Shown here: piece by piece, positions 1-39,866 of the stretch
How positions within the stretch are numbered: position 1 is the first letter of the stretch
Layout: each line of letters starts with the position of its first letter
Origin: Escherichia phage VEc20
Strand: one strand, 5' to 3'
Sequence record: MN022785.1
Length of the DNA: 64,000 nt
Notes under the pieces: model-generated
Databases searched by the model: none
What the model saw: only the letters and a program-made list of their open reading frames with translations
Told to the model about the DNA's origin: nothing
Translations under genes and position numbers: made by a program

Positions 1-65
1 GCCTTGGTAAAAACGCTTACTTCCGCCGTGTATATGTTAAAGGTATCTAATCTTTGACGATTTAA

Positions 66-30505: not shown

Positions 30506-32093
<1,588 letters not shown>

Positions 32094-32101
32094 AATAAAA
32101 T

Positions 32102-32115
32102 GGGCCTTGCGGCCC
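32102..32115 (-). other. intergenic hairpin between nrdB and denA
   Basis: GGGCC-TTGC-GGCCC; GCAA loop in minus-strand RNA, followed by AUUUUAUU. Confidence 0.4.
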
Positions 32116-32120
32116 ACTCC

Positions 32121-33290
32121 TTAAAAATATTTTTTAAAACTCATCATAACTTTATCATCAACATCATTATCAATCTGTGCTACAAGGTAAGATGACAGTT
32201 CTACTTCTTGCGGCGCGGATTGAACATTATCAGAATTAAGGTATTCACGAATCCAAGGATATGGATGTTTAACCGGAGCATCGGTAATTGGGCATGGAAG
32301 ACCGCACTGTTTCATACGAGATACAGTTAAGTAATCAATAAAGCTCCACATGCTATTTGTATTTAATCCAGGAACATCACCATCTTTAAATAAATGAACT
32401 GCCCAATCTTTTTCTTGGCGGTTAACTTCCATGAAAATATCAACTGCTTCTTGTTCACACTCTTGAGCAATTTTAACCCATTCATCGCCATCAGTGCCAA
32501 GTTGAAGTTGACGAATAATATATTGAGTGCCTTTAAGGTGAAGCTGCTCATCACGTGCAATGAACTTCATAATCTTGGCATTACCTTCCATGATTTCCAT
32601 ATTCTTGTGGAAGTTAAAGGTACATGCGAAAGATACATAAAAACGAATAGCTTCTAAGGCATTAATAACGTGCAAACAGAGGTAAAGAGATTTCATTAGC
32701 TCTCGTTTGGCGTATTCAACGACTTTACCAAGTTCATCTTTGCGCCAACCTTCAGACAAAATTCCTTCGTATTCTTCTTTAGCGTTTTCCCAATAACGAG
32801 TTTTAATCAGAACATCATCATAATAACGTCCAATGGATTCAGCACGTTTCATAATAGCTTCATCTAGTACAATCTCATCAAATACCTTTGACGGATCAGT
32901 ATAAAGATTTCGCATGATATGTGTATATGAACGGCTGTGAATAGTTTCACTAAAAGTCCATGTAGCAACCCATGTATCAAGGCTTGGGTCTGAAATTAAT
33001 GACATAAGTACAGCAGACGGTGCACGACCCTGAATGCTATCCAAAAGTGATTGATACTTCAGGTTATTAGTAAAAATATTTTGCTGATACTGAGGAAGCT
33101 TATTAAACTGTGCAGCATCCATCATTAAGTTTACTTCTTCAGGACGCCAGAAAAATGATAAAGATTTCTCAATAAGTTCTTCAAATACTCTATGCCGTTG
33201 AATATCATATCGAGCTAAACCCAATCCAGAACCAAAAAACATCGGCTCAGTCAAAATATTAACAGGGGATGTATTAAAAACTGTACTCAT
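32121..33290 (-). CDS. nrdB: ribonucleotide reductase small subunit NrdB (uninterrupted)
   Basis: Continuous 389-aa ORF with no intron. Confidence 0.9.
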   Translation of the reverse strand: MSTVFNTSPVNILTEPMFFGSGLGLARYDIQRHRVFEELIEKSLSFFWRPEEVNLMMDAAQFNKLPQYQQNIFTNNLKYQSLLDSIQGRAPSAVLMSLISDPSLDTWVATWTFSETIHSRSYTHIMRNLYTDPSKVFDEIVLDEAIMKRAESIGRYYDDVLIKTRYWENAKEEYEGILSEGWRKDELGKVVEYAKRELMKSLYLCLHVINALEAIRFYVSFACTFNFHKNMEIMEGNAKIMKFIARDEQLHLKGTQYIIRQLQLGTDGDEWVKIAQECEQEAVDIFMEVNRQEKDWAVHLFKDGDVPGLNTNSMWSFIDYLTVSRMKQCGLPCPITDAPVKHPYPWIREYLNSDNVQSAPQEVELSSYLVAQIDNDVDDKVMMSFKKYF

Positions 33291-33928
33291 TTAGAATCCT
33301 TAAATTTACATTTATCATAATGCCATCTTAGAGCATTGCCTTTATTAACTTTCTTGCCACAATGCGGACAAGGCGGATACTCTATACTTTGCTTAGTTCT
33401 CAAAGAAATCAAATCGCGAGTTTCTTTAGTATGAGGAACATCTCTTGTCGGAGAGATTGTACCATACATCGGATTAAGCACGCCGACTTTAGCAGCAGCT
33501 ATATTCTTTTTAGCTTCTTCGGTTTTAGGTTTTCTCATGCGAGCTAAATGCTCTTTGGTAAATTTCCTTCCTTTAAGAGCTCTACTTATCTTTTCCCTGG
33601 TTTCTATAGAAACTTCACGTCCTATAGCAGCTTCAGATAAACGTCGTCTACCTAATTCGTATAGTTGAGAAGAAATTTTATATGAGCGATTTTTACCAGT
33701 CAAGCACATTAAACCAAAAGCTTTCTTTAATCCTGGGGTGTCATATATTTTGCATAAAAGCCAATGAGCTATAAAATGCTCTCTACCTGTTAATTCAACT
33801 AAATTTTCTTTATCATCAGAACCTCCCATGCATCTAGGGATTATATGATGAGTCTCTTTATATCCTAATAAAGGTTCCCGAGCCTGAGCTCGGGAAATTA
33901 GGTCATTATAGATTTTTTGATAATTCAT
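33287..33928 (-). CDS. mobE: HNH homing endonuclease (mobE-like)
   Basis: 213-aa ORF with HNH motif HHIIPRCMGGSDDKENLVELTGREHFIAH; sits between nrdA and nrdB where T4 carries mobE. Confidence 0.6.
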   Translation of the reverse strand: MNYQKIYNDLISRAQAREPLLGYKETHHIIPRCMGGSDDKENLVELTGREHFIAHWLLCKIYDTPGLKKAFGLMCLTGKNRSYKISSQLYELGRRRLSEAAIGREVSIETREKISRALKGRKFTKEHLARMRKPKTEEAKKNIAAAKVGVLNPMYGTISPTRDVPHTKETRDLISLRTKQSIEYPPCPHCGKKVNKGNALRWHYDKCKFKDSK

Positions 33929-36192
33929 TACAATTTACACGCTGCACAATCTTCAGCTTTTGGAGTTTCTATTTCATAATCATCAGTACCAGAACCATCG
34001 CGGGTATTATGATAATAGAAATTTTTTCCGCCAAAATACCAAAAATACAAAAGGTCATCAATCATTATTGACATTGGAACCTTGCCTTTAGGGAAGATTT
34101 GGGGGTCATAGTATGTATTCGCCGAAGCTGATTGACAAACCCATTTCAGCATAATAGCTACCTGCGTAAGATAAGGTTTATTACCTTTCTTAGCTAATTT
34201 CCATGTATAGTCGTAAAGGTCTATGTTATGCTCAATATTGGGCACGACCTGATTAAAGGAGCCCTCTTTTGATTCTTTAACAGAGACTGGTCCACGTGGA
34301 GGCTCGATACCGTTTGTACTGTTAGAAACTTGGGAAGATGACTCACATGGCATAAGTGCTGATAATGTGCTATTACGGATGCCAAAGAGCTTAAGGTCTT
34401 CCCGCAGCGACGACCAGTCACAAACGTATTTTGGAGCTGCGATTTGGTCAATCTTTTTATTGTACCAGTCGATAGGTAATTCGCCTCGAGACCAACGAGT
34501 GTCTGAATAATATTCGCAAGGTCCTTTTTCTTTGGCGAGCTTAATGGATGCTTTAATGAGTCCATACTGTAATCTCTCAAATAGTTCATGTGTTAAATCG
34601 TTAGCATCTTCATAAGAAGCAAAGTTACTTGCCAGCCAAGCTGCATAGTTAGTAACACCTACACCGAGGTTACGACGCTTTTTAGCTTTTTCTGCTTCAG
34701 GAACTGGATATCCTTGGTAATCCAAAAGATTATCAAGAGCACGAACTTGGACTTCTGCCAATTCATTAATTTTATCTTGGTCTTGCCAATCAAAATTATC
34801 CAGTACGAATGCAGAAAGAGTACACAATCCAATTTCAGCATCAGGACTATTCACATCATTTGTTGGAATAGCAATTTCACAGCACAAGTTACTCTGACGA
34901 ATAGGTGCCTTTTCACGAATAAACGGAGTATAGTTATTCGTATTATCAATGAACTGCACATAAATCCTTGCTGTTCCTGAACGTTCAGTCATGAGCAATT
35001 CAAATAGTTCACGGGCTTTAATACGCTTTTTACGAATATTAGGGTCTTTTTCTGCGGCTTCGTATAATTCACGGAAACGGTCTTGGTCTTTAAAATAAGA
35101 ATAATAAAGCTCGCCACCCATTTCATGCGGACTGAACAAAGTAATGTAATCGTTCTTTCCGAATCGTTCCATCATCAAATCATTCAGCTGAACACCATAA
35201 TCCATATGACGAATGCGGTTTTCTTCTACGCCTTTGTTATTTTTCAAAACGAGAAGATTTTCAACTTCCAAATGCCAAATAGGATAATAAGCAGTAGCAG
35301 CGCCGCCACGAATTCCACCCTGTGAACATGATTTAACTGCAGTCTGAAAATGTTTCCAAAAAGGAATAACACCAGTATGACGTACTTCACCCATGTCAAT
35401 CTTAGAACCTTCAGCACGAATCATACCAACGTTAATACCAATTCCAGCGCGTTTAGAGATATATTCAACAATTGAAGCAGAAGCTTTATTAATTGACTTC
35501 AATGAATCACCAGCTTCAATAACAACACATGAACTAAACTGTCGAGTCGGAGTACGGCAACCAGCCATAATAGGAGTTGGCAATGAAATCTGTCGAGTAG
35601 ATACCGCTTCATAAAAACGAATAACATGTTTTAATCTATCAACAGGTTCATCTTGATGCAATGCCATTCCAATAGTCATAAATGCAAACTGTGGAGTTTC
35701 ATAAATTTGACCAGTGGTTTTATCTTTAACTAGATATTTTTCTTTTAATTGCATCGCCCCGGAATAAGTAAATTCCATATCCCGCTCGTGCTTAATTTTT
35801 GATTCTAAAAATGTAATTTCTTCTGCTGAATATTTTGACAATAATTCAGGGTCGTATTTACCTTCATTTACACAGTAAGAAATATGGTCAATAAATGAAC
35901 GTGGTTCATACTGCCCATAAACATGCTTACGAAGAGCAAACATTAAACAGCGTGCAGCTACATATTGATAATCAGGCTCTTCAACCGAAATAGAATTCGC
36001 AGCGGCCTTAATGACAATAGTCTGAATATCATCAGTTGTCATTCCATCACGGAGATAAGATTTAATATTTTCATATAATTCATAAGGATCTACTGATGTT
36101 CCCTCAGCTGCCCAAGATAAAACTTTAATAATTTTTTGCGGGTCAAAGCTCTGAGAAACACCACTACTTTTGATAACATTAATTAATTGCAT
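33928..36192 (-). CDS. nrdA: ribonucleotide reductase large subunit NrdA
   Basis: 754-aa ORF, T4 NrdA length. Confidence 0.9.
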   Translation of the reverse strand: MQLINVIKSSGVSQSFDPQKIIKVLSWAAEGTSVDPYELYENIKSYLRDGMTTDDIQTIVIKAAANSISVEEPDYQYVAARCLMFALRKHVYGQYEPRSFIDHISYCVNEGKYDPELLSKYSAEEITFLESKIKHERDMEFTYSGAMQLKEKYLVKDKTTGQIYETPQFAFMTIGMALHQDEPVDRLKHVIRFYEAVSTRQISLPTPIMAGCRTPTRQFSSCVVIEAGDSLKSINKASASIVEYISKRAGIGINVGMIRAEGSKIDMGEVRHTGVIPFWKHFQTAVKSCSQGGIRGGAATAYYPIWHLEVENLLVLKNNKGVEENRIRHMDYGVQLNDLMMERFGKNDYITLFSPHEMGGELYYSYFKDQDRFRELYEAAEKDPNIRKKRIKARELFELLMTERSGTARIYVQFIDNTNNYTPFIREKAPIRQSNLCCEIAIPTNDVNSPDAEIGLCTLSAFVLDNFDWQDQDKINELAEVQVRALDNLLDYQGYPVPEAEKAKKRRNLGVGVTNYAAWLASNFASYEDANDLTHELFERLQYGLIKASIKLAKEKGPCEYYSDTRWSRGELPIDWYNKKIDQIAAPKYVCDWSSLREDLKLFGIRNSTLSALMPCESSSQVSNSTNGIEPPRGPVSVKESKEGSFNQVVPNIEHNIDLYDYTWKLAKKGNKPYLTQVAIMLKWVCQSASANTYYDPQIFPKGKVPMSIMIDDLLYFWYFGGKNFYYHNTRDGSGTDDYEIETPKAEDCAACKL

Positions 36193-36509
36193 AAGTCCTC
36201 AACTTGAAAATCGTCTTTAAACAATCGGTTAACTATATGAGCTATTATATCACCATGACACGGCTTTGGTTTACATGTGCATCCTAGCCTCATTCCGCGT
36301 AAAGGCTCTAAATGTGCTTTAGTTATTTCTCCGGATTTAATTCGACGTATAAAATCTTTTTTGAATAATTCAATGGCAGCCTCCCGGCTGCCAGCATCTT
36401 TACCGACGTAATTTCCCCAAAATGTACCGCGGTGAATATTAATATCAAAGTCGGATTTATATTTATTCACTACCTGGCATAGACGGCCCGCGCGACGATA
36501 ATTCGTCAT
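36183..36509 (-). CDS. hypothetical protein
   Basis: 108-aa ORF with Cys/His cluster ([11 protein letters not shown]). Confidence 0.5.
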
Positions 36510-36738
36510 ATTGTTTTTCCGTTAAAACAGTAATATCATAGTAACAATCAGAAGAAGTTTTAACTGTAGAAATTTTATTATCAAAATACTCACGAGTCAT
36601 TTTATGAGTATAATATTTTTTACCATAAATGATAATAGGCTGATTTGGTCCTGGAACTTCTAACTCGCTTGGGTTAGGAAGTGTAAAAAGAATGGCACCA
36701 GAAGTATCTTTAAATCGTAAAATCATATATCCTCTCAA
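36463..36738 (-). CDS. hypothetical protein
   Basis: 91-aa ORF. Confidence 0.45.
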
Positions 36739-36749
36739 TTAAATTAAAA

Positions 36750-37061
36750 TTATACCGCCATTTTTCCTTTCAAGACACCGTGGGATTGATAATCTTTGAG
36801 AACGAAATCTTTAGGCCTAAGTTTAAGAACATATTTTAATTGTTCTTTAGTAGAAAGATATCGGAATTTATAAGGTAGACCACTTATTACCAGCTCACAA
36901 AGCTCTTTAGGTTCACGCCTCAAAATTTCTTTACATTGTTCTACGTGATTCATATAGATATGAGTATTACCACCAGAAAATATCAAATCTCCTGGAATAA
37001 GATTACACATCTTAGCTACAATATGCGTCAAGGCAGCGTACGAGGCAATGTTGAACGGTAG
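36750..37061 (-). CDS. td: thymidylate synthase, exon 2
   Basis: Encodes LPFNIASYAALTHIVAKMC... through the stop; the 3' splice site follows the intron-terminal G at 37062. Confidence 0.85.
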   Translation of the reverse strand, partial: LPFNIASYAALTHIVAKMCNLIPGDLIFSGGNTHIYMNHVEQCKEILRREPKELCELVISGLPYKFRYLSTKEQLKYVLKLRPKDFVLKDYQSHGVLKGKMAV

Positions 37062-38077
37062 CATTATGTTCAGATAAGGTCGTTAATCTTATCCCGGAAT
37101 TATATCCAGCTGCATGTCACCATGCAGAGCAGACTATATCTCCAACTTGTTAAAGCAAGTTGTCTATCGTTTCGAGTCACTTGACCCTACTCCCTAAAGG
37201 GATAGTCGTTAGGCATTTATGTAGAACCAATTCCACTTATCAGATTTTACACGGTAAGTAACTAATCCTGATGAAATTTCAAAATGTCTAGCCGCATCGG
37301 CTGCACATTCAAAAATAATCCCATCGCATGAAATCTTTTTGATGTTAGCTGGCTTTTTGCCTTTCATCTTTTCAGATAGTTTAGTTTTAGTTTTTTCTGA
37401 ATGTTTGTGATTAAAGAACGGGTTATTTTCACCTGAACGTTTTCGGCACTTTCCACAAGTATCGGCCGAAGATGGTATGCGAACACCGCATTTACAAAAC
37501 TTGTGGTTTTCTGGATTCCATCGGCCATTTTTACTTCCGTGTTTACCATAAAGAGCTTTCCGACCATCAGGACCAAGCTTAAGCATCTTAGCTTTAACAG
37601 TTTCAGCTCGTTTCTTAGCAATTTCTTCTTTTAATGGATGATTTGAAAGCACATCGCCAAAAGACGCATCAGCAATATTATATCCATTAATTTTAGAATT
37701 TAGCTCTTTAATCCAAAAATTTTCTCGTTCAATAATCAAATCTTTCTCATATGGAATTTCTTCCAGTACAGAGCATTCAAAAACATTACCATGTTTATTA
37801 AAAGACCTTTGAAATTTTATAGAAGAGTGAACACCGTTTTCAAGGTCTTTAAAATGTCTCTTCCATCTTTTCTCAAAATCTTTAGCACTTCCAACATACA
37901 CTTTACCGTTTAAAGTGTTTTTAATCTGATAAATTCCGCTTTTCATAAACACCTCTTTTTATATAGAAGTATTTATTAAAGGGTAGTCCTACAATTTAGC
38001 ACGGGATTGTCTACTAGAGAGGTCCCCCGTTTAGATAGATTACAAGTATAAGTCACCTTATACCTAGGCCTAAATTA
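37062..38077 (-). mobile_element. td group I self-splicing intron carrying the I-TevI gene
   Basis: 1016 nt between exon 1 (...FLG) and exon 2; 5' end reads UAAUUUAGGCCUAGGUAUAAGGUGAC and 3' end ...CAUAAUG, as in the T4 td intron. Confidence 0.85.
37209..37946 (-). CDS. I-TevI: intron-encoded GIY-YIG homing endonuclease I-TevI
   Basis: 245 aa from ATG 37946 (MKSGIYQIKNTLNGKVYVGS...) with RBS GAGG. Confidence 0.85.
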   Translation of the reverse strand: MKSGIYQIKNTLNGKVYVGSAKDFEKRWKRHFKDLENGVHSSIKFQRSFNKHGNVFECSVLEEIPYEKDLIIERENFWIKELNSKINGYNIADASFGDVLSNHPLKEEIAKKRAETVKAKMLKLGPDGRKALYGKHGSKNGRWNPENHKFCKCGVRIPSSADTCGKCRKRSGENNPFFNHKHSEKTKTKLSEKMKGKKPANIKKISCDGIIFECAADAARHFEISSGLVTYRVKSDKWNWFYINA

Positions 38078-38626
38078 ACCCAAGAAAACATCTACACTGC
38101 GTTGATACCACTGCAAATCCAAATAGCCATTACGCACATTAAACTGATAGAACATATGACAAGGCGGTAATGCCATATATTTAAGTTCAGCTGGATTCCA
38201 CGCAGAAACAATTTGTCGCCTATCATTCGGCAGTTTTTTAATACGATCAATAACTTCTACAATTTGGTCTACACCGCCAAAATCACGCCACTGTTTTCCA
38301 TAAATTGGACCAAGTTCACCGCTATGGTATCCTAAATCTTTTGCTTGATTTTCGTAATTTTCATCCCAGACTGTTTTGCCTTGAATTAATGAATCATGCT
38401 GAATTAATCGTAAATCATTGACATTTGTGCTTCCTGATAAAAACCAAAGTAGCTCAGCAATGCATGCATTCCAGGCGAGCTTTTTAGTTGTTACTGCAGG
38501 AAAACCTTTACTTAAATCCCAGCGTAATTTAGTACCGAACAAAGCAATTGTTCCTGTGCCTGTTCGATCATCGGTTTCATAGCCATTTTCAAAAATGTCT
38601 TTAATTAAATCTTGGTATTGTTTCAT
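38078..38626 (-). CDS. td: thymidylate synthase, exon 1
   Basis: 183 codons MKQYQDLIKD...QRSVDVFLG ending at the 5' splice site; 183 + 103 = 286 aa. Confidence 0.85.
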
Positions 38627-38671: not shown

Positions 38672-39019
38672 TCAATACGGTTTAGCATCAAATTTTCTTT
38701 CGATTTCAGGAGTGAAATATAATTCTTTACCGCGTTTAGAAAAGCGACCAATAATATGATAATTATTCTCATCAAACGTGATATTACCAATATCCATAGC
38801 TTTCAACCAAATATCGATATTTCTATCCAGCTTTATGTCAAAATTCCAATACGGAGAACTATTACCGAAAATACTGCAAGCGGATTCAGTGAAACAACTG
38901 CTATAAATCTTGTCTTTAGGAACTACTAATTGATAGACACCTTTAATAAACTGAGGACCTTGCCATTTTGGCTGTTTTGCGTCTTTTTCTAATAGAATAG
39001 GATAATAATTAAAGTTCAT
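38672..39019 (-). CDS. hypothetical protein encoded by a cassette inserted between frd and td
   Basis: 115 aa from ATG 39019 (MNFNYYPILLEK...); no recognisable motif. Confidence 0.5.
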   Translation of the reverse strand: MNFNYYPILLEKDAKQPKWQGPQFIKGVYQLVVPKDKIYSSCFTESACSIFGNSSPYWNFDIKLDRNIDIWLKAMDIGNITFDENNYHIIGRFSKRGKELYFTPEIERKFDAKPY

Positions 39020-39039
39020 ATTTTCCGCCACGCGTTATT

Positions 39040-39866
<827 letters not shown>

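What the first reader, a model, noticed from the sequence alone, without database searches (positions are those of the whole stretch)
37062..38077. Complete td group I intron with intact I-TevI
Exon 1 ends ...FLG and exon 2 begins LPFNIAS..., separated by exactly 1016 nt. The intron opens with a UAA stop immediately after the splice site and ends ...AUG. Inside is an intact 245-aa GIY-YIG endonuclease (MKSGIYQIKNTLNG...), so the mobile intron appears fully functional.
Basis: partly seen in the sequence, partly recalled or inferred. Interest (0 to 1): 0.35.

Follow-up and report, generated by a model that had tools for sequence, protein, structure and literature searches.

The report
Known td intron with I-TevI endonuclease
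This is the well-known self-splicing, mobile intron of the T4-type phage thymidylate synthase gene, here in an already sequenced natural variant ("TuIa type") with an intact homing endonuclease, so it is a correct but ordinary finding.

Summary
On the minus strand, td exon 1 (38626-38078, ...FLG) and exon 2 (37061-36750, LPFNIAS...) are separated by exactly 1016 nt (38077-37062). This stretch starts with an in-frame UAA, ends in AUG, and holds an intact 245-aa GIY-YIG endonuclease gene (37946-37209).

It is not T4's own allele. It aligns to the T4 td intron without a gap but with 100 mismatches (90.2% identity). It is 100% identical to the intron of phages NRG-P0074 and BEU50, and 99.9% identical to the TuIa td intron.

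All 76 modelled P1-P10 pairs are standard pairs. Across 12 natural variants 99.6% of pair cells hold, and 8 pairs show compensatory changes.

The endonuclease is 88.6% identical to I-TevI. It keeps every catalytic residue and zinc-finger cysteine, and it is under purifying selection (dN/dS 0.125). The late promoter, operator and Shine-Dalgarno hairpin are conserved.

One extra result: td here is a mosaic. The exons are T4-like, but the intron and the first 36 nt of exon 2 are TuIa/Mosigvirus type. That is the footprint of homing or recombination.

Function (splicing, mobility) is inferred, not shown. Novelty: already known. Interest is low.

The parts
38078..38626 (-). td (thymidylate synthase) exon 1, 183 codons, ends ...FLG
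   Evidence: ORF list. Pfam PF00303 profile positions 1-175, E=4e-64. 96% nt identity to T4 exon 1.
38100..38104 (-). CAACG (5'-CNNNG-3') at -27..-23 from the insertion site. This is the I-TevI cleavage motif of the reconstituted homing site.
   Evidence: Sequence. Cleavage at 23/25 nt upstream of the insertion site and the CNNNG preference are taken from PMC2988022.
38096..38098 (-). Ser codon AGT at -21..-19 (T4 has TCA). It matches the TuIa/Mosigvirus carriers of this intron and is the only difference from T4 in the last 120 nt of exon 1.
   Evidence: Base-by-base exon comparison.
37062..38077 (-). Group I intron, 1016 nt (intron position i = window 38078 - i). Starts UAA (in-frame stop) and ends with a terminal G (AUG).
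   Evidence: 100% identical to NRG-P0074 and BEU50, 99.9% to TuIa AY262157, 90.4% to T4.
38064..38083 (-). P1: exon UUGGGU (-6..-1) pairs with the internal guide G9-G14 (GCCUAG), including the U-1/G9 wobble at the 5' splice site. U6-A7-G8 can pair with exon 2 CUA (P10, 3 bp).
   Evidence: Pair list. The register comes from the Rfam alignment of ORF-less relatives. P1 and P10 pairs vary but stay paired across variants.
38046..38063 (-). P2 hairpin (intron 15-32), 7 bp with a GUGA loop
   Evidence: recovered by MFE.
37989..38039 (-). 5' strands and hairpins of the catalytic core: P3 5' (39-44), P4/P5 (48-77), P6 5' (78-79), P6a 5' (85-89)
37975..37994 (-). Probable I-TevI operator (intron 84-103, TTGTAGGACTACCCTTTAAT). 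It overlaps the late promoter. G94A relative to T4.
   Evidence: Similarity to the homing site is 13-14/20 in my register. The operator concept and T4 data come from PMC2988022. Binding was not tested.
37970..37978 (-). T4-type late promoter-like box TAATAAATA (intron 100-108), identical to T4
   Evidence: Sequence. The role is taken from PMC2988022.
37949..37972 (-). Hairpin that sequesters the Shine-Dalgarno GAGG of the endonuclease gene (intron 106-129). Same predicted stability as T4 (-6.4 kcal/mol).
   Evidence: Fold of the leader in 9 variants. TuIa variants of this hairpin are mentioned in PMC2988022.
37209..37946 (-). I-TevI ortholog, 245 aa + stop (intron 132-869), inserted in the P6a loop. 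Its last codons form the 3' strands of P6a and P6.
   Evidence: Pfam GIY-YIG, I-TevI_ZnF, NUMOD3 and I-TevI_DNA-bd. PDB 1mk0/1ln0/1i3j. 88.6% aa identity to T4 I-TevI, dN/dS 0.125, key residues kept.
37073..37224 (-). 3' half of the ribozyme: P6a/P6 3' (854-865), P7 5' (871-876), P7.1, P7.2, P3 3' (910-915), P8, P7 3' (941-946), P9, P9.1, P9.2
   Evidence: Rfam RF00028 partial hit at 37110-37340, 36.1 bits, E=3e-7. Pair counts. Only 2 differences from T4: a loop base, and a G-U to A-U change.
36750..37061 (-). td exon 2, 103 codons + stop, begins LPFNIAS
   Evidence: Pfam PF00303 profile positions 176-266.
37026..37061 (-). Exon 2 positions +1..+36: identical to TuIa, 10 differences from T4. 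From +48 on the exon is T4 type. This is the likely co-conversion tract, with the crossover at window 37015-37025.

Best explanation
This is the mobile group I (subgroup IA-type) intron of the thymidylate synthase gene td of a T4-like phage (Tequatrovirus-like backbone), in the natural allele first sequenced from phage TuIa. Inferred mechanism, by homology with the T4 td intron:

1. Splicing. The pre-mRNA folds into the P1-P10 ribozyme. An external guanosine bound in P7 attacks after U-1 of the U-1/G9 wobble. The terminal G1016 then occupies the same site and the exons are ligated, restoring a 286-aa thymidylate synthase. Unspliced RNA terminates at the in-frame UAA.

2. Endonuclease expression. 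The gene sits in the P6a loop and is read late in infection from an intron-internal late promoter. Early read-through transcripts keep its Shine-Dalgarno sequence in a hairpin. The protein probably represses its own promoter by binding an operator that resembles the homing site.

3. Homing. In a mixed infection the enzyme would bind an intronless td allele around the insertion site through its zinc finger, helix and helix-turn-helix domain. It would cut 23/25 nt upstream at CAACG with its GIY-YIG domain. Repair from the intron-containing genome copies the intron and the adjacent exon sequence.

The td gene in this window carries the trace of such a transfer or a related recombination: T4-type exons, but a TuIa/Mosigvirus-type intron plus 36 nt of exon 2.

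Shown here: the boundaries, the intact ORF and domains, all helices intact, covariation, the conserved regulatory motifs, and the mosaic. Inferred: splicing, cleavage, autorepression and the route of acquisition.
For: Boundaries and reading frames.

Identity: 100% to NRG-P0074 and BEU50, 99.9% to TuIa, 90.4% to T4. The window as a whole is about 96% identical to Tequatroviruses.

Ribozyme: all 76 pairs are standard in the window. Across 12 variants 99.6% of cells are paired and 8 pairs have changes on both sides. 0/500 shuffles reach these values, and slid controls pair at only 30-43%. ORF-less td introns with a nearly identical core score 72.7 and 66.9 bits on Rfam RF00028, whose gathering score is 50. 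The MFE fold of the ORF-deleted core recovers 10 of the helices, z = -2.5. The 7 differences from T4 in the intron RNA outside the ORF and its leader all fall in loops or junctions or keep the pair: U-G/U-A swaps in P1, and G-U to A-U in P9.2.

Endonuclease: four I-TevI Pfam domains. Matches to PDB 1mk0, 1ln0 and 1i3j. Y6, Y17, R27, H31, H40, E75, N90 and C151/153/164/167 are kept, and dN/dS is 0.125 at dS 0.51.

Regulation: late promoter box identical to T4, hairpin energy unchanged. Mechanism literature: PMC2988022.

Mosaic.
Against: No experiment was possible. Splicing, cleavage and autorepression all rest on homology.

Rfam does not call the intron in the window at its gathering score (0 hits; 36.1 bits against 50). 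The 775-nt gap between the P6a strands (ORF plus leader) explains this, but the direct family test on this sequence is formally not met.

28 amino-acid changes, concentrated in the linker and zinc finger (16-24% of residues), could alter activity or distance selection.

In exon 1, position -4 is G (T4 type) although every sampled carrier of this intron type has A. That does not fit a simple repair tract running from a cut at -23 through the intron, so the acquisition route is uncertain.
Confidence: 0.95

Rival explanations
1. The intron variant entered this T4-like td gene not by I-TevI-initiated homing into an empty site, but by ordinary homologous recombination between two co-infecting phages that both already had a td intron (one T4 type, one TuIa type). 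The crossovers would lie in the conserved 5' end (between exon position -4 and intron position 6) and in exon 2 (+37..+47). This rival concerns the history only, not what the element is.
For: Exon position -4 keeps the T4-type G, while every sampled TuIa-type carrier has A. A repair tract starting from a cut at -23 should have converted it. Phage sutha has the same intron type but T4-type bases at intron positions 13, 14 and 54, so crossovers inside the conserved intron core do occur. The closest overall relative, G2540, carries a T4-type intron at the same site.
Against: The AGT at -21..-19, next to the cleavage site, and 36 nt of exon 2 are donor type, as expected for co-conversion. However, the Arg-Ser codons at -24..-19 vary among td alleles, so AGT is a weak marker. 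A donor with G at -4 may simply not have been sampled.
Confidence: 0.35
2. The intron is present and splices, but the endonuclease is an inactive or weakened relic, so the element is no longer mobile (as with T4's I-TevIII).
For: 28 substitutions relative to the characterised enzyme, densest in the linker and zinc finger that set the cleavage distance. ORF-less and ORF-truncated td introns exist in related phages (HMD-9 254 nt, MLP2 320 nt, F1 446 nt), so loss of the gene does happen in this lineage.
Against: The ORF is full length with no frameshift. All catalytic and zinc-binding residues are kept. dN/dS is 0.125 over a synonymous divergence of 0.51, which indicates long-term selection on the protein. 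The same allele is found at 99-100% identity in at least 21 records from two genera with very different exons (79% identical), which implies recent spread.
Confidence: 0.05
3. It is simply the phage T4 td intron and I-TevI as in the reference genome.
For: Same length (1016 nt), same insertion site, same ORF length and position. Gap-free alignment.
Against: 100 nucleotide and 28 amino-acid differences from T4. Other deposited phages match at 100%.
Confidence: 0.01

Closest known systems
td intron of phage TuIa (GenBank AY262157) and of Mosigvirus phages such as NRG-P0074, AV109, SQ17
   Same: The intron is identical (NRG-P0074, BEU50) or differs at 1 of 1016 positions (TuIa). The endonuclease allele, leader, insertion site and first 36 nt of exon 2 are the same.
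   Different: The surrounding td exons are only about 79-85% identical. The window's exons are T4 type. Exon position -4 is G here and A there, so the P1 pair is G-U instead of A-U. Those phages have frd overlapping td, and some carry a homing endonuclease gene between td and nrdA that the window lacks.
Phage T4 td intron with I-TevI (GenBank M12742; PDB 1mk0, 1ln0, 1i3j)
   Same: Same gene, insertion site, length (1016 nt), secondary structure, ORF position in the P6a loop with its 3' end forming P6a/P6, late promoter box, SD hairpin, domain order and key residues.
   Different: 90.2% nt identity. Divergence is 12.5% in the ORF but only 1.4-4.3% in the ribozyme core. The protein is 88.6% identical, with most changes in the linker and zinc finger. 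G6U adds a third P10 pair that T4 lacks. G94A lies in the operator.
ORF-less td introns (phages HMD-9, MLP2) and the I-TevI homolog intron of Salmonella phage CGG4-1
   Same: Same insertion site and the same ribozyme core. They supply the Rfam-validated register and the compensatory changes in P6a, P7.2, P8 and P9.2.
   Different: HMD-9 and MLP2 have lost the endonuclease gene (254 and 320 nt). CGG4-1 is 1012 nt with a more diverged core.

Membership tests
Group I self-splicing intron (Rfam RF00028; T4 td intron lineage, subgroup IA with P7.1/P7.2) | P1 helix between the 5' exon end and an internal guide sequence, with a U-G wobble at the 5' splice site | tested here: met
   U-1/G9 wobble plus 5 further pairs (-6..-2 with 14..10). 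U-G is invariant in 12 variants, and the outer pairs vary while staying paired.
Group I self-splicing intron (Rfam RF00028; T4 td intron lineage, subgroup IA with P7.1/P7.2) | Terminal guanosine at the 3' end of the intron, and P10 pairing with the 3' exon | tested here: met
   The intron ends ...AAUG (G1016 = window 37062). U6-A7-G8 pairs with C+1 U+2 A+3.
Group I self-splicing intron (Rfam RF00028; T4 td intron lineage, subgroup IA with P7.1/P7.2) | Conserved core P3-P4-P5-P6-P7-P8-P9 with the P3/P7 pseudoknot | tested here: met
   All pairs are standard in the window. 99.6% of cells are paired across variants, 8 pairs are compensatory, and controls are far lower. The MFE fold recovers the local helices.
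Group I self-splicing intron (Rfam RF00028; T4 td intron lineage, subgroup IA with P7.1/P7.2) | Extra hairpins P7.1 and P7.2 between P7 and P3' (subgroup IA feature; the definition is from my own knowledge and PMC3984707) | tested here: met
   Intron 877-886 and 891-904 form hairpins. P7.2 has a U-A to C-G compensatory change in CGG4-1.
Group I self-splicing intron (Rfam RF00028; T4 td intron lineage, subgroup IA with P7.1/P7.2) | Score at or above the Rfam gathering threshold (50 bits) | tested here: inconclusive
   Window: no hit at gathering, and 36.1 bits, E=3e-7, for the 3' half only, because 775 nt of ORF and leader separate the P6a strands. ORF-less td introns with a nearly identical core score 72.7 and 66.9 bits.
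Group I self-splicing intron (Rfam RF00028; T4 td intron lineage, subgroup IA with P7.1/P7.2) | Guanosine-dependent self-splicing | not testable with these tools
   Needs in vitro transcription and splicing, or RT-PCR.
I-TevI-type GIY-YIG homing endonuclease | N-terminal GIY-YIG catalytic domain with GIY...YxG and catalytic Arg27, Glu75, Asn90 | tested here: met
   PF01541 E=1.4e-16. Residues 1-97 align to PDB 1mk0/1ln0. Y6, Y17, R27, H31, H40, E75 and N90 are present.
I-TevI-type GIY-YIG homing endonuclease | Linker ending in a four-cysteine zinc finger, then a NUMOD3/minimal helix and a C-terminal helix-turn-helix DNA-binding domain | tested here: met
   PF22635 E=1.8e-17, PF07460 E=2.3e-5, PF20987 E=1.9e-31. 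Residues 130-245 align to PDB 1i3j end to end. C151, C153, C164 and C167 are kept.
I-TevI-type GIY-YIG homing endonuclease | Encoded inside the td intron, with the target being the intronless td junction carrying CNNNG about 23-27 nt upstream | tested here: met
   The ORF occupies intron 132-869. The joined exons give ...CAACGCAGTGTAGATGTTTTCTTGGGT|CTACCGTT, with CAACG at -27..-23. Site definition from PMC2988022.
I-TevI-type GIY-YIG homing endonuclease | Double-strand cleavage 23/25 nt upstream of the insertion site, and promotion of intron homing | not testable with these tools
   Only indirect evidence: purifying selection, near-identical copies in divergent genomes, and a donor-type exon tract.

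The most novel reading that the evidence does not exclude
The TuIa-type enzyme differs from T4 I-TevI at 28 residues, with the highest density in the linker and zinc finger that set the cleavage distance (16-24% of residues against 5-7% in the catalytic and helix-turn-helix domains). It may therefore have a measurably different cleavage-distance or spacer preference. Separately, this window may record a recent cross-genus (Mosigvirus to Tequatrovirus) intron transfer with an unusually short and patchy exon 1 tract. That pattern is opposite to the exon 1 bias in co-conversion reported for T4 I-TevI (PMC2988022).
Probability: 0.2. Interest if true: 0.3.

Novelty: already known. Interest (0 to 1): 0.1.

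Why it matters
The td intron with I-TevI is the textbook model for bacterial group I intron splicing and homing, and I-TevI domains are used in genome-editing fusions. This window adds no new kind of element, and the same intron sequence is already in GenBank.

Its modest value is as a clean natural example of two things. First, the divergence is uneven: the ribozyme core is almost frozen (1-4% divergence), while the endonuclease gene inside it has diverged 12.5% under purifying selection. Second, it shows intron exchange between phage genera, with a sharply delimited donor-type tract in exon 2. For annotation, td should be joined across 38078|37061 on the minus strand. The internal gene should be called an I-TevI-family homing endonuclease starting at the ATG at 37946.

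Tried and rejected
1. The Rfam scan of the whole window at gathering thresholds found nothing. A permissive scan found only the 3' half, and it mis-assigned ORF sequence as the P3 5' strand. I rejected this as evidence against an intron, because the ORF splits the core. ORF-less relatives were used to obtain a valid register.

2. My first manual guess for the helix closing the ORF loop (UAGG/CCUA) was dropped in favour of UGUAG/CUACA (P6a). The Rfam alignment of MLP2, covariation in HMD-9 and the MFE fold all support the latter.

3. The ORF listing reports a 247-aa ORF from a GTG at 37952. I rejected that start. The GTG is created by the A128G substitution and directly abuts the GAGG Shine-Dalgarno sequence, whereas the ATG at 37946 sits 5 nt downstream of it, as in T4.

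4. I looked for a deposited phage with the same hybrid td allele. None exists in the phage collection (best 95.5%).

5. My operator/homing-site identity count gave 13-14/20, against 15/20 stated in the review. My register may be off by a base or two, so I make no claim about operator strength.

6. Not attempted, as unnecessary for a 100%-identical known element: protein database searches, structure prediction, and metagenome or genome scans.

Full report
**Observation.** The feature is real and lies at exactly the stated coordinates, but on the minus strand. Reading the reverse complement:
- td exon 1 (38626-38078) ends GTT TTC TTG GGT (V F L G).
- The next triplet (38077-38075) is an in-frame TAA.
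- The intervening sequence runs down to 37062, ends ...ACATAATG, and is 1016 nt long.
- Exon 2 starts at 37061 with CTA CCG TTC AAC ATT GCC (L P F N I A) and ends at 36750.

The joined exons encode a 286-aa protein that differs from T4 thymidylate synthase at 12 residues. The Pfam thymidylate synthase profile is split exactly at the junction: positions 1-175 in exon 1 and 176-266 in exon 2. Inside the intron, an ORF from the ATG at 37946 to the stop at 37209 encodes 245 aa beginning MKSGIYQIKNTLNG.

**Identity.** A megablast of the 1016 nt against 50,697 phage records gave 259 records with a match:
- 100% identity in Escherichia phages BEU50 and NRG-P0074.
- 99.9% in the td record of phage TuIa (AY262157) and several Mosigvirus genomes.
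- 90.4% in T4 itself and the many T4-type carriers.

Twenty-one records are at least 99% identical, and 164 fall in the 90-95% band. The window therefore holds the minority "TuIa-type" allele. The window as a whole is about 96% identical to Tequatrovirus genomes such as G2540 and RB3. Against the original T4 sequence (M12742) the intron aligns with no gap and 100 mismatches.

**Ribozyme.** Rfam does not report the intron at its gathering score. A permissive scan finds only the 3' half (37110-37340, 36.1 bits, E = 3e-7) and mis-places the 5' half, because 775 nt of ORF and leader separate the two P6a strands.

A distant search with the ORF-deleted core turned up natural ORF-less td introns: HMD-9 at 254 nt, MLP2 at 320 nt and F1 at 446 nt. 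Rfam RF00028 scores HMD-9 at 72.7 bits and MLP2 at 66.9 bits, against a gathering score of 50. Its alignments fix the register of P1, P2, P3, P4, P5, P6, P8 and P9.

I transferred this register to the window and added P6a, P7, P7.1, P7.2, P9.1, P9.2 and P10. All 76 pairs in the window's intron are Watson-Crick or G-U. On an alignment of 12 natural variants (A1):
- 99.6% of 909 pair cells are standard pairs.
- 8 pairs carry changes on both sides, in P10, P6a, P7.2, P8 and P9.2.
- No shuffle out of 500 reaches any observed measure.
- Sliding the partners by 1-3 columns drops pairing to 30-43%.

A plain MFE fold of the ORF-deleted core independently recovers P2, P4, P5, P6, P6a, P7.1, P8, P9, P9.1 and P9.2, with z = -2.5.

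Of the 100 differences from T4, only 7 lie in the intron RNA outside the ORF and its leader:

| Position | Change | Effect |
|---|---|---|
| 6 | G to U | adds a third P10 pair |
| 13 / 14 | GA to AG | swaps U-G and U-A in P1 |
| 54 | A to G | in the J4/5 junction |
| 94 | G to A | in the P6a loop / operator |
| 883 | G to A | in the P7.1 loop |
| 986 | G to A | G-U becomes A-U in P9.2 |

**Endonuclease.** Pfam finds all four I-TevI modules in order:
- GIY-YIG, residues 3-90, E = 1.4e-16
- I-TevI zinc finger, 149-179, E = 1.8e-17
- NUMOD3, 171-191
- I-TevI DNA-binding domain, 192-242, E = 1.9e-31

Residues 1-97 and 130-245 align end to end with the crystallised I-TevI domains (1mk0, 1ln0, 1i3j). 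Compared with T4 I-TevI there are 28 substitutions (88.6% identity) and no indel. Y6, Y17, R27, H31, H40, E75, N90 and the four zinc-finger cysteines are all retained.

Substitutions are densest in the linker (16%), the zinc finger (24%) and the minimal-helix region (18%). They are rarest in the catalytic domain (5%) and the helix-turn-helix domain (7%). Nei-Gojobori estimates are dS 0.51 and dN 0.064, so dN/dS is 0.125, which indicates long-term purifying selection.

Nucleotide divergence from T4 is very uneven: 12.5% in the ORF, 10% in the leader, 4.3% in the 5' core, 1.4% in the 3' core, and 0% in the 16 nt where the ORF end forms P6a/P6. The second refutation test, a frameshift, is also passed. 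The GTG start two codons upstream that the ORF listing reports is an artefact of the A128G change and abuts the Shine-Dalgarno sequence, so the ATG is the start.

**Regulation.** The features described for T4 I-TevI are a late promoter inside the intron, an operator overlapping it that resembles the homing site, and a hairpin that hides the ribosome binding site in early transcripts (PMC2988022). All are recognisable here:
- The TAATAAATA box is identical to T4's.
- The hairpin keeps all 8 pairs, with one U-A becoming U-G and two loop changes. It has the same predicted energy of -6.4 kcal/mol.
- The operator-like 20-mer carries one change, G94A.

That review already notes TuIa variants of this hairpin. 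Function of these elements here is inferred.

**Homing site and mosaic.** The joined exons give ...CAACGCAGTGTAGATGTTTTCTTGGGT|CTACCGTTCAAC..., with the CNNNG motif CAACG at -27..-23. This matches the published cleavage position of 23/25 nt upstream of the insertion site.

Feature-by-feature identity shows that td is a mosaic:

| Segment | vs T4 | vs Mosigvirus carriers of the same intron |
|---|---|---|
| Exon 1 | 96% | 78-80% |
| Intron | 87.5-98.8% across its segments | 99-100% |
| First 50 nt of exon 2 | 11 mismatches | 2-3 mismatches |
| Next 100 nt of exon 2 | 1 mismatch | 22-23 mismatches |

Base by base:
- Exon 2 positions +1..+36 are identical to TuIa, with 10 differences from T4.
- From +48 onward the exon is T4 type.
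- In the last 120 nt of exon 1, the only difference from T4 is AGT for TCA at -21..-19, which matches the donors.
- Position -4 is G as in T4, whereas all sampled donors have A.

Two other Tequatroviruses with this intron type, sutha and TB004, switch to T4-type exon 2 already around +13..+17. Sutha's intron has T4-type bases at positions 13, 14 and 54. These hybrids therefore differ in their recombination boundaries, and crossovers also occur inside the intron. No deposited phage has the window's exact hybrid allele (best 95.5%).

The pattern fits the known co-conversion that accompanies homing. However, the unconverted -4 leaves room for plain homologous recombination between two intron-bearing phages, and I could not distinguish the two routes.

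**Comparison and verdict.** Every sequence-testable defining feature of a group I intron of the T4 td lineage and of an I-TevI-type endonuclease is met. The one exception is the Rfam threshold on the uninterrupted window sequence, which the ORF insertion explains. Catalytic activities cannot be tested here. The element is already known, down to identical sequences in GenBank and a mention of the TuIa variant in a 2010 review.

Interest is low. The mosaic and the uneven divergence of core and ORF are tidy illustrations of known biology rather than new findings.

Noticed in passing
window 38672-39031 (minus strand): A 119-aa ORF sits between frd (39040-39621) and td. In T4 and the Mosigvirus carriers, frd overlaps td directly. 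It has no Pfam match and hits PHROG 1928 (unknown function, E=1e-35). G2540 has a homolog at the same place (94% nt), and sutha has a different, shorter ORF there.
   Followed up: partly
window 33287-33928 and 32121-33290 (minus strand): A 213-aa HNH + NUMOD3 protein (mobE-like free-standing homing endonuclease) lies between nrdA and nrdB. nrdB itself is one uninterrupted 389-aa ORF, so this phage has no nrdB intron or I-TevIII.
   Followed up: partly
window 31683-32117 (minus strand): A 144-aa protein with a GIY-YIG domain lies downstream of nrdB. By position and from memory of the sequence it resembles T4 endonuclease II (denA). I did not verify this beyond Pfam.
   Followed up: no
window 37950-37952 (intron position 128): The A128G substitution creates an in-frame GTG two codons upstream of the I-TevI ATG, so mechanical ORF calling gives 247 aa. 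It also turns a U-A pair of the SD hairpin into U-G without changing the predicted stability.
   Followed up: yes
A1 columns 14/272 (intron position 6 with exon 2 position +3); window 38072 and 37059: The third P10 pair covaries among natural td alleles: U6 with A+3 in 5 sequences, G6 with U+3 in 4, and U6 with G+3 in 1. T4 and T6 have an unpaired G6/A+3. The intron guide and the exon 2 allele thus seem matched in most phages but not in T4.
   Followed up: partly
L004 (HMD-9), L005 (MLP2), L006 (F1): Natural td introns that have lost all or most of the endonuclease gene (254, 320 and 446 nt) while keeping the ribozyme core. HMD-9 replaces the ORF loop with a short GUUC-UUUU-GAAC hairpin. They illustrate the loss phase of the homing-endonuclease cycle.
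   Followed up: partly
L016 (phage sutha) intron positions 13, 14, 54: Sutha's intron is TuIa type except for T4-type bases at 13, 14 and 54, so it is a recombinant within the conserved 5' core. Its exon 2 donor tract is also shorter than the window's.
   Followed up: partly
exon 1 positions -24..-19 (window 38096-38101) across td alleles: The Arg-Ser codons directly at and next to the I-TevI cleavage site are unusually variable in synonymous form among phages: CGC TCA, CGC AGT, CGA TCA, AGA AGT, CGT TCT, CGC AGC. The surrounding 20 nt are nearly invariant. This could reflect repeated conversion or selection at the cut site.
   Followed up: no
window 36183-36738 (minus strand): Two small overlapping ORFs lie between td and nrdA: DUF5496, 91 aa, and DUF4326, 108 aa. 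Mosigvirus carriers of the same intron instead have one small ORF, and in NRG-P0074 and AV109 also a homing endonuclease gene there. Sutha has a homing endonuclease gene on the opposite strand.
   Followed up: no
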